Shown here piece after piece: positions 26,222 to 42,259 of a DNA stretch of 64,000 nucleotides (within the stretch, counting starts at the first letter, position 1; every line of letters begins with the position of its first letter). The stretch is from Schmidtea polychroa (taxonomy: Eukaryota), in contig CM097885.1 in assembly GCA_044892525.1 (NCBI GenBank), positions 29,576,001 through 29,640,000 on the forward strand, read 5' to 3'. Both the position numbers and the translations under genes were made by a program. Below the pieces are notes generated by a model. The model saw nothing but the letters and a program-made list of their open reading frames with translations. It was not told the origin of the DNA and did not search any database.

Positions 26222-26344
26222 ATCATTAGTAGATGGATTGGGCACCGCTGGCACAGGGCACCGCTAGCACAGTACCCCCCCCCCTCCCCCCCCCCCGTCG
26301 GTAAGATTTTCAAAAATATTCTAAGTCTAAAAGTACATTTTTTT

Positions 26345-27260
26345 TTCAAGGTCAAATTTAAACAAAGACATATGACTCATCAAGGTCATTGAAACAAAGA
26401 CCATGAGTCATCCTATGACTCATAAAATTTTTCAAGGTCATTTAAACAAAGACCATGACTCATCCGATGACTCATCAAGGACATTTTCAAGGTCATATGA
26501 CTCATACTATGACTCATCAAGGTCAAAAAAATTTCCTCAAGGTCATTTAAACAAAGACCATGACTCATCCGATGACTCATCAAGGACATTTTCAAGGTCA
26601 TATGACTCATACTATGACTCATCAAGGTCAAAAAAAATTTCTCAAGGTCATTTAAACAAAGACCATGACTCATCAAGGTCATTTTCAAGGTCATATGACT
26701 CATCCTATGACTCATATGCCCTTGAAAAATTTTTTCAAGGTCATATGACTCATCCTATGACTCATCAAGGTCATTGAAACAAAGACCATGACTCATAGTA
26801 TGACTCATATGACCCTGAAAAATTTTTTTCAAGGTCATATGACTCATAGTATGACTCATCAGGGGCATTTTCAAGGTCGTATGACTCATAGCATGACTCA
26901 TTTGACCTTGAAAAATTTTTTTCAAGGTCATATGACTCATAATATGACTCATCAAGGTCATTTTCAAGGTCATATGACTCATAATATGACTCATCAAGGT
27001 CATTTTCAAGGTCATATGACTCATAGTATGACTCATTTGACCTTGAAAAAATTTTTCAAGGTCATATGTCTCATCCTATGACTCATCAAGGTCATTCTCA
27101 AGGTCATATGACTCATCCGATGACTCATCAAAATTTTCAAGGTCATTTTCAAGGTCATCTGAGTCATCCTATGACTCATCAAGGTCATTTTCAAGGTCAC
27201 ATGACTCATCCAAGGTTATTCCCAAGGTCATATGAGTCATCGCGATGACTCATCAAGGTC
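26345..27260. promoter_or_regulatory. Subterminal array of ATGACTCAT, TCAAGGTCA and AAACAAAG motifs (left arm)
   Basis: Dozens of shuffled copies read directly. They match AP-1, NR5A/ERR extended half-site and Fox/Sox-like consensus. Function is inferred. Confidence 0.6.
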
Positions 27261-27417
27261 ATATTATTATTTTTAAAAAATATTATTATTTTTATTATTA
27301 TTTTTAAAAATATTATTATTTTATTTTTAATTTTTTCAAAGTTCCCGCCAACGAAAATTAATAATCGATAGCTCATTTTAAAGCTCAATCCAAGACCTTT
27401 CGAATGAGCCATATATC

Positions 27418-27543
27418 TTATTATTATTATTATTATTATTATTATTATTATTATTATTATTATTATCATTATTATTATTATAATTATTATTATTATTATT
27501 ATTATTATTATTATTATTATTATTATTATTATTATTATTATTA
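27418..27543. repeat. (ATT)n tract in left arm (longer mirror at 40358-40522)
   Basis: Direct reading. Confidence 0.95.
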
Positions 27544-27676
27544 GTATTAATCTATATACACCGAGTCTATATACTTTGAGTCTATCTGACAAAATATTTT
27601 GTCCCCCTATGGGTAATGCTCACAAGGGTACTGGTCACGCTCAACAAATCAACAAATCAACAAAACATACATTTAT

Positions 27677-28177
27677 TTAAACAATAAAATAATGTAAAAT
27701 TAACAAAGGTAAACTAAATATTGATGTACTACTATTCGCAGCAATATTGTTAGAAATTGGTAACGTTGAATTGATTTTCAGATATTCTATTGATCCTTTG
27801 ATTGTTTGAATTTCTCTTAATAATAATTCAATCTTTTTTAACAAATAATCATGCTTCTTATCAATAATCTTCATATTCTTTTTATTTTCAGTAATAGAGT
27901 TATTGAAAACCTCAATATGATCAATCAATTTAATTTTTATATTTTGTATATATTCAAATGTTAGTTCATAACTGTTTTCTAAATTCTCCAATCTTTGAGA
28001 TATTCTTTTTCCTGGATGCTTTGACCATTTTGGTTTATCGAGAATATATAAAATATCCATCAACTTGGCTGTATTCGGACAAACACATATTGATTTATTA
28101 AAAGACTCCACCGTTATTGTTGTATTGTGTGAGCACACACTCGTTATAATAATTAGCAATATGAATAGAGTTTTCAT
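27677..28177 (-). CDS. 166-aa putative secreted / GPI-anchored coiled-coil glycoprotein
   Basis: Signal peptide MKTLFILLIIITSVCS, several NxS/T sequons, heptad-rich middle, small-residue linker and hydrophobic C-terminus with no cytoplasmic tail. Confidence 0.7.
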   Translation of the reverse strand: MKTLFILLIIITSVCSHNTTITVESFNKSICVCPNTAKLMDILYILDKPKWSKHPGKRISQRLENLENSYELTFEYIQNIKIKLIDHIEVFNNSITENKKNMKIIDKKHDYLLKKIELLLREIQTIKGSIEYLKINSTLPISNNIAANSSTSIFSLPLLILHYFIV

Positions 28178-28282
28178 GGTGTATCAAATCAAAACCTTTC
28201 TTTTACATTTATAGTCTATCAACCAATCAAAATCATCCGGTATTAGTATAAATAAAACATCATATTTTAAATTATTGTAAAA

Positions 28283-39038: not shown

Positions 39039-39097
39039 TAAATCTTAGTTAATTAGTGTTTGTAAATTTATTTAAAAATCAAACAAAAATAACTATA

Positions 39098-39618
39098 TTA
39101 ATTTTTATTTAAAAATCTGGTTAAAATATACAAAATAGCAACACCTGTTGCAAGTTTTACATAGTTTTTAAATTTTCTTTTCTGATCGTCTATTTCTTTT
39201 GCATTTCTGGCGAGTTGATTGAGTACTCCCCATCCGCCATTGGCTTCAATCCATGGTTGAAACTTTGACTTGATTATCTAGAAAATAAATATTAATAAAA
39301 TATAAATTATAAAAGTATTACTTCTTGAGACCACTGATAATAGTGCTCTGAGTCCCATAGACTTCTTTGGATTATTATTTTCATATAAGCGAACCCTACT
39401 AGTATTCGGGTCCACTTCATCTGATCGTCGCATAGACAGTTAAAAATTCTATTAAAATAGAATTTTTTGGTTTCGAGACAATCAGAATTGATCACATCGT
39501 CATAATCAATGTGATTACCTTCTATAATCTTTTCGGTCTGATCGACCAGGAAACATAGGCTTTCCATAATATTCCTGTTGACGAGTTCTCTTAAAAGATT
39601 TTCCATAAATTGAGACAT
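39098..39618 (-). CDS. Mirror copy, Bcl-2 family protein (exons 39618-39322, 39277-39098)
   Basis: Same motifs. One substitution, DRTEK versus DQTEK. Confidence 0.85.
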
Positions 39619-39723
39619 TTTTACAATAATTTAAAATATGATGTTTTATTTATACTAATACCGGATGATTTTGATTGGTTGATAGACTATAAATGTAAAA
39701 GAAAGGTTTTGATTTGATACACC

Positions 39724-40224
39724 ATGAAAACTCTATTCATATTGCTAATTATTATAACGAGTGTGTGCTCACACAATACAACAATAACGGTGGAGTCTTT
39801 TAATAAATCAATATGTGTTTGTCCGAATACAGCCAAGTTGATGGATATTTTATATATTCTCGATAAACCAAAATGGTCAAAGCATCCAGGAAAAAGAATA
39901 TCTCAAAGATTGGAGAATTTAGAAAACAGTTATGAACTAACATTTGAATATATACAAAATATAAAAATTAAATTGATTGATCATATTGAGGTTTTCAATA
40001 ACTCTATTACTGAAAATAAAAAGAATATGAAGATTATTGATAAGAAGCATGATTATTTGTTAAAAAAGATTGAATTATTATTAAGAGAAATTCAAACAAT
40101 CAAAGGATCAATAGAATATCTGAAAATCAATTCAACGTTACCAATTTCTAACAATATTGCTGCGAATAGTAGTACATCAATATTTAGTTTACCTTTGTTA
40201 ATTTTACATTATTTTATTGTTTAA
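39724..40224 (+). CDS. Mirror copy, secreted / GPI-anchored protein
   Basis: Identical translation to 27677-28177. Confidence 0.7.
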   Translation: MKTLFILLIIITSVCSHNTTITVESFNKSICVCPNTAKLMDILYILDKPKWSKHPGKRISQRLENLENSYELTFEYIQNIKIKLIDHIEVFNNSITENKKNMKIIDKKHDYLLKKIELLLREIQTIKGSIEYLKINSTLPISNNIAANSSTSIFSLPLLILHYFIV

Positions 40225-40677
40225 ATAAATGTATGTTTTGTTGATTTGTTGATTTGTTGAGCGTGACCAGTACCCTTGTGAGCATTACCCATAGGGGGAC
40301 AAAATATTTTGTCGGATAGACTCAAAGTATATAGACTCGGTGTATATAGATTAATACTAATAATAATAATAATAATAATAATAATAATAATAATAATAAT
40401 AATAATAATAATAATAATAATAATAATAATAATAATAATAATAATAATAATAATAATAATAATAATAATAATAATAATAATAATAATAATAATAATAATA
40501 ATAATAATAATAATAATAATAAGATATATGGCTCATTCGAAAGGTCTTGGATTGAGCTTTAAAATGAGCTATCGATTATTAATTTTCGTTGGCGGGAACT
40601 TTGAAAAAATTAAAAATAAAATAATAATATTTTTAAAAATAATAATAAAAATAATAATATTTTTTAAAAATAATAAT

Positions 40678-41332
40678 ATGACCTTGATGAGTCATCGCGA
40701 TGACTCATATGACCTTGGGAATGACCTTGGATGAGTCATGTGACCTTGAAAATGACCTTGATGAGTCATAGGATGACTCAGATGACCCTGAAAATGACCT
40801 TGAAAATTTTGATGAGTCATCGGATGAGTCATATGACCTTGAGAATGACCTTGATGAGACATAGGATGAGTCATATGACCTTGAAAAAAATTTTCAAGGT
40901 CAAATGAGTCATACTGTGAGTCATATGACCTTGAAAATGACCTTGATGAGTCATATTATGAGTCATATGACCTTGAAAATGACCTTGATGAGTCATATTA
41001 TGAGTCATATGACCTCGAAAAAATTTTTCAGGGCCAAATGAGTCATACTATGAGTCATACGACCTTGAAAATGACCTTGATGAGTCATACTATGAGTCAT
41101 GGTCTTTGTTTCAATGGCCTTGATGAGTCATAGGATGAGTCATATGACCTTGAAAAATTTTTTTCAAGGGCATATGAGTCATATGACCTTGAAAATGACC
41201 TTGATGAGTCATCGGATGAGTCATGGTCTTTGTTTAAATGCCCTTGAAAAATTTTATGAGTCATAGGATGACTCATGGTCTTTGTTTCAATGACCTTGAT
41301 GAGTCATATGTCTTTGTTTAAATTTGACCTTG
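40678..41332. promoter_or_regulatory. Subterminal motif array (right arm, shorter)
   Basis: Reverse-complement array ATGAGTCAT / TGACCTTGA with fewer units than the left arm. Confidence 0.6.
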
Positions 41333-42259
41333 AAAAAAAAATGTACTTTTAGACTTAGAATATTTTTGAAAATCTTACCGACGGGGGGGGGGTACTGTGC
41401 TAGCGGTGCCCTGTGCCAGCGGTGCCCAATCCATCTACTATCATTATTTCCCCAATCATTTTACTCATTTAACAATTATTTTGGTTTTATTATTTGGTTA
41501 TCCTCAACAACCCTATATTGTAAAACTAATATTACTAAATGAATTTTAAAGTTATAATATTGCATATTAATGTTAAAGGTCAAATATCATATAAGGAATT
41601 AATTTATTCGTGCGTTACGTAATCTAATTCAATTACTTGGTGATTACGGAGGCTCTACAATTAAAATAATAGTACAGTTGTTATTCAAATATAAATTTTA
41701 AAATGACAACGCCAAAAATGTACTTACATCGATGACTCTAGGAGATTGAATAAAAAAACAAGAGATTCTCTACTAAATGCTAGGAAACTCTTGGATATGA
41801 AGACTAATAGATATTATGGCAAATGCACTAAAGAAACTTAAAATGAATACAATAAATTGATATTATATCCCCATACATATTGTTAATTCACACTTCCCAT
41901 CGACACTAACATGTTTAACACTTACAATTTCATTTTCTGAAGTGTTTTCAATAATGGAATGTAATGTATGACACCCAGTTTCATAGAATAACTTTACTTC
42001 TATTATCAAGAAAGTCAATAATTTGATATTATATAAAAACGTAACCTGAGTGTTGACACAGCACAGTAAAAATTCATTTTAACTTTTAATAGATGTAACA
42101 ATTACACAAAACATCTGGTTATTCTGCAAATTCCTTTCTGGACAATATCGTGAGACATGATTCGCTCAGCATCGATTCAATATTATCGGTTTATCTTTAT
42201 TATTTTGCTTACATTTTTTTCCAGGCTTAAATTTCGCGAGTTTTGGTGTTTCGGTGTCG

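What the first reader, a model, noticed from the sequence alone, without database searches (positions are those of the whole stretch)
26228..41439. Whole-element palindromic Polinton integrated with an intact 6-bp TSD: a snap-back defective genome
Seen: both halves are the same arm in mirror image, bounded by AGTAG..CTACT and ATCATT duplications, with no recognisable pPolB, protease or MCP. Known: Polintons have AG..CT ends, 6-bp TSDs and protein-primed strand-displacement replication. Inference: it arose as a copy-back product during extrachromosomal replication, kept two functional ends, and was integrated, like a defective-interfering genome that depends on a helper.
Basis: partly seen in the sequence, partly recalled or inferred. 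Interest (0 to 1): 0.85.

Follow-up and report, generated by a model that had tools for sequence, protein, structure and literature searches.

The report
Folded-back half of a Polinton
This 15-kb mirror-image element is a single-copy, defective member of an abundant virus-like transposon family whose left half was copied back onto itself and rejoined to its own right end, most likely after it had inserted, while similar fold-backs elsewhere in the genome likely formed on free molecules before insertion.

Summary
The palindrome, AGTAG..CTACT ends, ATCATT target duplication and loss of polymerase, protease and major capsid genes are in the assembly. It derives from a family of about 800 ordinary 17-20 kb Polintons. 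It folds back at an 8-nt inverted microhomology (50-nt loop), skips 1.46 kb, and mirrors the left half. Both junctions occur once in the genome, so it has not spread. It is not a pure copy-back: the two terminal repeat arrays differ as much as those of ordinary copies, whereas the inner 5.3 kb differ by one substitution and share 4-5 private mutations. Best reading (about 0.58): fold-back repair on the chromosome, resolved through the element's own right terminal repeat. Formation on a free genome before insertion stays open (about 0.3 in two forms); reads gave no verdict on artefact. The neighbouring 16-kb gene-less palindrome (44477-60532) belongs to a family of several hundred copies, which this scan noted before here and in another genome.

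The parts
26222..26227 (.). left copy of the 6-bp target-site duplication ATCATT
   Evidence: sequence
26228..27730 (+). left terminal inverted repeat: AGTAG end, C-tract, hypervariable array (about 26340-27260) and (ATT)n tract; inner limit approximate, taken from ordinary copies (27713-27736 or 28103)
27677..30647 (.). five small accessory ORFs (107-168 aa stop to stop); 28271-28594 has a weak Bcl-2 match below the Pfam cut-off
   Evidence: PF00452 E 0.0033, 18.4 bits, cut-off 31.4
30628..31092 (-). TBP-like ORF
   Evidence: PF00352 E 2.2e-15
31123..31791 (+). packaging ATPase
   Evidence: PF04665 Pox_A32 E 3.5e-7, above cut-off
31804..32343 (+). 179-aa basic ORF, no family match
32330..33490 (+). 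retroviral-type integrase with chromodomain; holds a 72-nt (TAT)n tract with GT..AG ends, likely an intron
   Evidence: rve E 9.6e-6, below cut-off; Chromo E 0.0015
33421..34491 (+). 356-aa ORF, single copy; look-alikes in Preplasmiviricota-dominated clusters; minor capsid protein by position (inferred)
   Evidence: score 0.97-0.98, recognition value low
34484..34706 (+). start of the 121-aa basic core-like ORF, cut by the fold-back
34641..34706 (.). fold-back junction: 8-nt inverted microhomology 34641-34648 / 34699-34706, both present in ordinary copies, around a 50-nt loop
   Evidence: an 8-nt inverted match within 100 nt occurs at 0.6% of positions of the left half
34699..34831 (-). short inverted copy of 34516-34648; shares the private allele at 34555
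34831..34831 (.). second junction: jump from 34516 to 33059 (1.46 kb skipped, one shared base)
34831..40171 (-). inner right arm: near-identical inverted copy of about 27730-33059 (second TBP-like, ATPase, accessory ORFs, 5' two-thirds of integrase)
40172..41439 (-). right terminal inverted repeat, likely the parent's own right end
41440..41445 (.). right copy of the target-site duplication ATCATT

Best explanation
It is a single-copy, defective Polinton whose left half is mirrored through a fold-back at an 8-base inverted match and joined to what is likely the element's own original right terminal repeat, most likely by chromosomal break repair after an ordinary copy had inserted and aged. 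Steps: (1) an ordinary 18-19 kb copy inserted, making the ATCATT duplication (TSD shown; order inferred); (2) it gathered private mutations (shown; timing inferred); (3) a strand ending at 34706 paired with 34641-34648 on itself and copied backwards (junction shown; mechanism inferred); (4) after 133 nt it jumped to 33059 and copied 5.3 kb of the left half (shown as structure); (5) on reaching terminal-repeat sequence it rejoined the homologous right terminal repeat, which deleted about 10 kb with capsid, protease and polymerase genes and kept both outer ends and the TSD (inferred). The copy is predicted to be inert unless a helper mobilises it, and no daughter copy is in the assembly.
For: Junctions unique: 1 hit each with up to 1 mismatch against 780+803 terminus hits and 480+471 ATPase-marker hits. 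Terminal arrays differ by 15 mismatches and 5 gap blocks; 15 ordinary copies give 5-32 (median 17); a copy whose two ends are duplicates (mirror runs at least 3.8 kb into host flank) gives 3, although its inner arms are about 18 times more diverged than ours (14 in 3638 against 1 in 5300). In 27730-33059 four alleles absent from all 35-38 other copies covering them (28894, 30726, 31930, 32690) and one absent from the 10 closest (32923) are on both arms; one substitution (28362) and one 1-base gap are arm-specific. The 30726 allele has exactly 2 hits genome-wide, the two arms. The 10 closest copies carry 0-6 singletons per 4.9 kb, so 5 is the load of an older insertion. The same anatomy recurs in family B element B3: differences only in the outer 1.6 kb, 8 shared private alleles, 0 arm-specific, one tested allele found only in its two arms. 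Chromosomal fold-backs do hit this family (L055-56). Known precedent: yeast fold-back inversions are mostly resolved by homology with an oppositely oriented repeat (PMC7467729, section 13); human inverted duplications show a spacer bounded by short inverted sequences (PMC3907307 abstract).
Against: Both this element (5 shared: 1 arm-specific) and B3 (8: 0) would have to have rearranged very late in their life; this needs long palindromes to be short-lived or arms to be re-homogenised, neither tested. A donor carrying the private alleles could be missing from one assembly (other haplotype, other individual, or excised). Only 2 of the private alleles were searched genome-wide, and one (28894) has a third hit, in a 92%-identical copy that lacks the other private alleles (read as recurrence). 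B1 and B4 show that fold-backs likely also form before insertion. Gene-less satellites with intact TSDs often have identical inner and 10-20% diverged outer arms, so switching between different ends may happen on free molecules too. B3 belongs to a thinly sampled subfamily (nearest copy 19 differences in 5546). No allele or read data for this locus.
Confidence: 0.58

Rival explanations
1. The same three template switches happened on free linear genomes during protein-primed strand-displacement replication (fold-back, jump, return to a right terminal repeat), and the finished defective genome was integrated with helper enzymes.
For: Intact ends and TSD. All four coding palindromes examined have 0-2 inner arm differences, as for recent insertions. 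B4 is a perfect hairpin with arms identical through the arrays and TSD ATTACC; B1 copies back to 10 nt short of the terminus, re-primes inside and runs to the terminus again, TSD TTCATT, which fits a template with a free end. Satellite copies with TSDs show inner-identical, outer-diverged arms.
Against: Needs a donor with 5-6 private alleles that left no other copy in the assembly. The two elements that best fit pre-insertion origin have 0 shared private alleles, whereas this one has 5. No daughter copies.
Confidence: 0.22
2. Born as a complete snap-back hairpin before insertion (like B4), aged in place, then its unstable centre broke and was repaired by copying the left arm onto the right, making the 1.46-kb asymmetry and erasing inner differences.
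For: B4 shows the starting state. The arm-specific base at 28362 lies outside the first shared private allele (28894), so a conversion end-point near 28.6 kb is possible. Instability of long palindromes is established knowledge (recalled).
Against: Arrays duplicated together diverged by only 3 mismatches at 0.4% inner divergence in L055-56; ours differ by 15. A shared private allele at 27576 lies outside 28362. In both this element and B3 the differences are confined to the terminal-repeat zone.
Confidence: 0.1
3. Assembly or library artefact: a chimeric fold-back read from an ordinary copy was stitched to the true right end through terminal-repeat similarity.
For: Short inverted microhomology is also the signature of amplification chimeras (recalled). 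Four public runs kept as contigs show no fold-back joint and not the 34555 allele. Near-identical arms are what such a chimera gives.
Against: Direct TSD with unrelated flanks rather than a mirrored flank; two internal junctions; arm-specific substitution and microsatellite lengths; other TSD-bounded fold-backs with their own junctions and several hundred gene-less palindromes with a shared centre. The runs laid lack this copy's private allele, so they are probably other individuals or dropped a 1-in-800 variant.
Confidence: 0.07

Closest known systems
Polintons/Mavericks (group with pPolB, rve integrase, packaging ATPase, adenain-like protease, double-jelly-roll capsid)
   Same: 6-bp TSD, long terminal inverted repeats, integrase and ATPase; parent family of 17-20 kb holds polymerase, protease and capsid ORFs. 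Features as given in PMC3014272 and 10.64898/2026.07.28.741278 (passages).
   Different: Polymerase, protease and major capsid lost; inverted repeat extended from about 1.5 kb to 6.8 kb; single copy.
Chromosomal fold-back inversions resolved by homology (yeast, PMC7467729; human inverted duplications, PMC3907307)
   Same: Hairpin junction at a short inverted sequence with a spacer; inverted duplication plus deletion; rescue by recombination with an oppositely oriented homologous sequence.
   Different: Here the whole event is confined to one mobile element whose own terminal repeats supply the homology, so the chromosome and TSD are unchanged.
AAV snapback genomes and viral copy-back/snap-back defective-interfering genomes (PMC8235507 abstract)
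   Same: Half-genome folded into a mirror image with both ends usable; parent functions missing.
   Different: Those are free, packaged molecules; this is integrated, carries two different terminal arrays, and shows no amplification. B1 and B4 are closer to the snapback form than this element.
Galileo elements with extended terminal repeats (PMC3573991) and a butterfly polinton with 2-kb gene-bearing terminal repeats (10.1101/2025.02.07.637071)
   Same: Internal sequence recruited as an inverted copy next to the other terminal repeat; longest repeats in non-autonomous copies.
   Different: Extensions of 0.1-2 kb there; 5.3 kb here, with a visible fold-back junction.

Membership tests
Polinton/Maverick (derivative) | 6-bp target-site duplication | tested here: met
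   ATCATT both sides; 21 of 24 family members examined have a matching 6-bp TSD
Polinton/Maverick (derivative) | long terminal inverted repeats starting AG | tested here: met
   the AG..CT rule itself is recalled
Polinton/Maverick (derivative) | retroviral-type integrase and packaging ATPase | tested here: met
   Pox_A32 above cut-off; rve E 9.6e-6 but below cut-off
Polinton/Maverick (autonomous) | protein-primed PolB, protease, major capsid protein | tested here: not met
   absent from the element; present in ordinary copies: 1253-aa ORF with PolB-type motifs read by eye, no Pfam, PHROG or PDB polymerase match; Peptidase_C5 E 7.3e-6; 427-aa ORF near DJR-like clusters
Snap-back defective-interfering genome | fold-back junction with mirror-image arms | tested here: met
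Snap-back defective-interfering genome | both ends copied from one end (identical termini at birth) | tested here: not met
   arrays differ like independent ends; met by B1 and B4
Snap-back defective-interfering genome | helper-dependent amplification | tested here: not met
   each junction once in the assembly; somatic or unfixed amplification not testable
Snap-back defective-interfering genome | packaging and interference with the helper | not testable with these tools
   no particle or extrachromosomal DNA data
Chromosomal fold-back inversion resolved by homology | short inverted microhomology with spacer, plus homology-mediated second junction | tested here: met
   8 nt, 50-nt loop; rejoin zone lies in the terminal repeat
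Chromosomal fold-back inversion resolved by homology | event post-dates insertion (unrearranged allele exists or existed) | tested here: inconclusive
   private-allele pattern favours it; no allele data

The most novel reading that the evidence does not exclude
Polintons in this animal regularly throw off half-genome snap-back molecules during free linear replication, and these are integrated with intact ends (B4, B1, perhaps this one): coding snap-backs are the missing first step towards the genome's several hundred gene-less 10-18 kb palindromic satellites, and their junctions are a fossil record of strand-displacement replication of linear Polinton DNA in an animal germ line.
Probability: 0.4. 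Interest if true: 0.72.

Novelty: new variant of a known kind. Interest (0 to 1): 0.45.

Why it matters
As one rearranged copy among about 800 it matters little. As one of a series it matters more: animal Polintons are thought (from gene content, recalled) to replicate as free linear DNA, and junction anatomy is a way to test that from genomes. The comparison here gives two classes that can be told apart by sequence: ends identical with no shared private alleles (B1, B4; likely made before insertion) and ends different with many shared private alleles (this one, B3; likely remodelled in place). With n = 2 per class this is a lead, but it can be scored on every palindrome in the genome. It also warns that an intact TSD does not show that a palindromic element moved in that form.

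Tried and rejected
Two copies inserted head to head and then fused: rejected; outer TSDs would not match (chance about 0.0007) and the arms would not share private alleles. Simple palindromic-read artefact: rejected; the right flank is not a mirror of the left. Assigning the right array to a 'right-type' class: failed; only 2 weakly diagnostic 21-mers separate left from right arrays in 11+10 arrays, and arm-specific 17-mers pointed to no single donor. Reads: 22 runs listed, 4 laid, all contigs; no fold-back joint, no verdict. Empty target site: not found among 176 loci searched. A pattern search did not match the family and was dropped. The +/- marker pair at C1:18588459/18598764 was not counted as a palindrome because the second hit lies outside the element's right end (18597256). 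Pfam, PHROGs and PDB sequence searches did not name the parent's polymerase or capsid. tblastx of a coding family-B copy against the satellite's inner arm gave nothing. Size near one genome length in the family-B fold-backs was not used as evidence of packaging, because they were found with a mid-genome marker. Rows dropped: could not delimit 1 of 24 elements; 4 short or divergent and 2 TSD-less elements were left out of the terminal-repeat set; 2 of 17 lacked anchors; simple-repeat zones were masked. Nine paper searches listed no description of half-genome fold-back Polintons; only listings and the passages named were read, most subscription journals are not held, and the original Polinton paper was not held under the id tried.
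Full report
Observation. The window is G000:C1:29576001-29640000 in a 781-Mb assembly. Self-comparison shows 26228-33059 inverted at 41439-34831 and a 133-nt hairpin arm, 34516-34648 inverted at 34831-34699; 33060-34515 is single. The element starts AGTAG, ends CTACT and has ATCATT as a direct repeat on both sides. The left half carries accessory ORFs, a TBP-like ORF, a packaging ATPase, an integrase, a 356-aa ORF and the start of a basic core-like ORF. Capsid, protease and polymerase of an ordinary copy have no tblastn match inside it.

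Parent family. The terminal 22-mer has 780 + and 803 - exact hits and an ATPase 22-mer 480 + 471. Of 24 elements fetched end to end, 21 have matching 6-bp TSDs, 2 do not, and 1 could not be delimited; most are 17-20 kb with terminal repeats of about 1.2-1.9 kb. In one ordinary copy used as a map the sequence after 34706 runs on into a 427-aa ORF near double-jelly-roll clusters (recognition value low), an adenain-like protease and a 1253-aa ORF with PolB-type motifs read by eye (not named by Pfam, PHROGs or PDB). About 10 kb of the parent is thus replaced by a mirror of the left half.

Junctions. All 16 readable of 18 ordinary copies continue through 34706 in agreement with the window, so 34699-34706 is native and is the reverse complement of 34641-34648: an 8-nt inverted microhomology around a 50-nt loop. 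Such a match exists at 0.6% of positions. The second junction joins 34516 to 33059 with one shared base. Each junction has exactly 1 hit in the genome with up to 1 mismatch. The structure has not been amplified.

The arms have two ages. Per 500 nt from the end the arms differ by 2, 15, 3, 0, 1 and then 0 substitutions. The terminal arrays differ by 15 mismatches and 5 gap blocks; 15 ordinary copies give 5-32, median 17, including copies with no private inner mutation. A control is L055-56 (C1:1346303), whose mirror extends at least 3.8 kb into host DNA, so both of its ends are one end duplicated on the chromosome: inner arms 14 differences in 3638, arrays only 3. The right end of our element therefore behaves as an independent terminal repeat, not as the end of a copy-back run.

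Private alleles. Against 43 other copies (10 within 0.6%), four inner positions are private and on both arms, a fifth is private among the 10 closest, and 27576 and 34555 are also private and duplicated; only 28362 and a 1-base gap are inner arm-specific. The closest copies carry 0-6 singletons in the same 4.9 kb. The 30726 allele has 2 hits genome-wide, both arms; 28894 has a third hit in a 92%-identical copy lacking the other private alleles. Six of the eight left-arm private changes in ORFs fall on first or second codon positions. The plain reading is that these mutations arose in one left half that was copied afterwards.

Mechanism. Inferred: a strand ending at 34706 folded onto 34641-34648, copied back 133 nt, jumped, copied 5.3 kb, and rejoined the homologous right terminal repeat. 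On the chromosome this keeps both ends and the TSD. In yeast, fold-back inversions are mostly resolved by homology, the commonest class through an oppositely oriented repeat (PMC7467729, abstract and section 13); human inverted duplications show the same spacer and short inverted sequences (PMC3907307, abstract). The same three switches could occur on free linear DNA; that needs a donor absent from the assembly. Against my reading, the event must be very recent relative to the insertion, and no allele data exist. Four public runs kept as contigs showed no fold-back joint and lacked the 34555 allele: no verdict.

Recurrence. In family A this is the only close +/- pair inside one element among the first 100 of 951 ATPase-marker hits; L055-56 is a second inverted copy that the marker misses. 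In family B (ends AGTAGGTAGATAG; 165 + 184 terminus hits) a capsid marker has 110 + 113 hits and 4 close +/- pairs in the first 100. All four were fetched. B4 (C2:2383586, 16.5 kb, TSD ATTACC) is a perfect hairpin at a native short inverted repeat, with 2 substitutions between 8.2-kb arms. B1 (C1:67839002, 22.6 kb, TSD TTCATT) folds back, stops 10 nt short of the terminus, re-enters at about 4.35 kb and runs to the terminus again, arms identical but for the C/G tract. B3 (C1:216068163, 17.4 kb, TSD TATGAT) has a 1-kb asymmetric centre and differences only in the outer 1.6 kb. B2 (C1:79.93 Mb) has an internal inverted duplication and then resumes the right half. Against 25 coding family-B copies and each other, private alleles shared by both arms number 0 (B4), 0 (B1) and 8 (B3); arm-specific 1, 0 and 0; one B3 allele was checked and is confined to its arms. 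The four marker spacings all differ, so no shared junction is seen among these hits; 123 hits were not listed.

The neighbour. 44477-60532 is a second palindrome: family-B ends, TSD TATGGT, 7.57-kb arms 99.7% alike, no ORF above 114 aa, inserted in an ORF of a third Polinton-like element. Of 16 other elements with these ends, 5 are coding and 11 are gene-less palindromes of 10-17.5 kb; 9 of the 11 have exact TSDs, 1 has it offset by 3 nt, 1 is a chimera; 10 of 11 share the central spacer. An inner-arm marker has 864 + 864 hits, with 33 inverted pairs among the first 100. Only the outer 2.3 kb and patches to 4 kb align to coding family-B copies. This is a mobile helper-dependent palindrome by inference, and earlier unchecked notes of this scan describe it here and in another genome; I found it before reading them.

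Comparison. Known parallels are terminal-repeat extension in Galileo (PMC3573991, passages), gene-bearing 2-kb repeats in a butterfly polinton (10.1101/2025.02.07.637071, passages), Polinton-mediated inversions in a nematode (10.1101/2024.01.15.575659, passages) and AAV snapback genomes (PMC8235507, abstract). Polinton features are from passages of PMC3014272 and 10.64898/2026.07.28.741278; the AG..CT rule and the replication model are recalled. Nine searches listed no report of half-genome fold-back Polintons; supplements and Repbase reports were not seen and may hold such elements.

Verdict. A real-looking, single-copy fold-back derivative of a Polinton: new variant of a known kind. Odds: rearranged in place 0.58, three switches before insertion 0.22, snap-back then later conversion 0.10, artefact 0.07. 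Interest 0.45, carried mostly by the series of fold-backs and the test that separates them.

Noticed in passing
window 44477-60532: Gene-less 16-kb palindrome with family-B Polinton ends and TSD TATGGT; member of a family of several hundred copies with a shared centre; in about half of the copies examined the arms are identical near the centre and diverged towards the ends.
   Followed up: partly
G000:C2:2383586-2400095 (L150-L152) and G000:C1:67839002-67861599 (L141-L143): Coding family-B snap-backs with arms identical to the termini and intact TSDs; the second stops 10 nt short of the terminus and re-primes, as if on a free linear template.
   Followed up: partly
G000:C1:216068163-216085595 (L147-L149) and C1:79.93 Mb (L144-L146): Family-B fold-backs that return to a different right end: one whole palindrome with diverged terminal repeats, one internal inverted duplication that resumes the right half.
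   Followed up: partly
G000:C1:1346303-1363396 (L055-L056, L123, L124): Family-A copy whose inverted duplication includes at least 3.8 kb of host flank.
   Followed up: partly
window 30628-31092 (-) and 36810-37274 (+): Polinton-encoded short TBP-like protein; noted several times before in this scan.
   Followed up: no
window 28271-28594: 107-aa ORF with a weak Bcl-2 family match (E 0.0033, below cut-off).
   Followed up: no
window 32794-32865: (TAT)n tract inside the integrase ORF with GT..AG ends and length variation between arms: likely a microsatellite intron that also keeps the frame open.
   Followed up: no
window 26340-27260: The terminal array holds 36 TGACTCA and 29 AGGTCA motifs in 1 kb; these resemble AP-1 and nuclear-receptor half sites (recalled), possibly an enhancer array; each copy has its own unit order.
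   Followed up: no
window 24148-25728: Relic of a 68-75% identical Polinton (356-aa ORF, core-like ORF, capsid start) just upstream of the element.
   Followed up: no
window 43764-44476 and 60533-63718: A third Polinton-like element (capsid-like ORF split by the satellite, ATPase-like ORFs at 62886-63718); at least 3.4 kb right of the satellite is repeated identically about 450 kb downstream beside a chimeric satellite copy.
   Followed up: no
L105-L106 (G000:C1:5691791-5708550): Satellite copy with three extra bases ACT between terminus and TSD, as an extra terminal trinucleotide unit would give.
   Followed up: no
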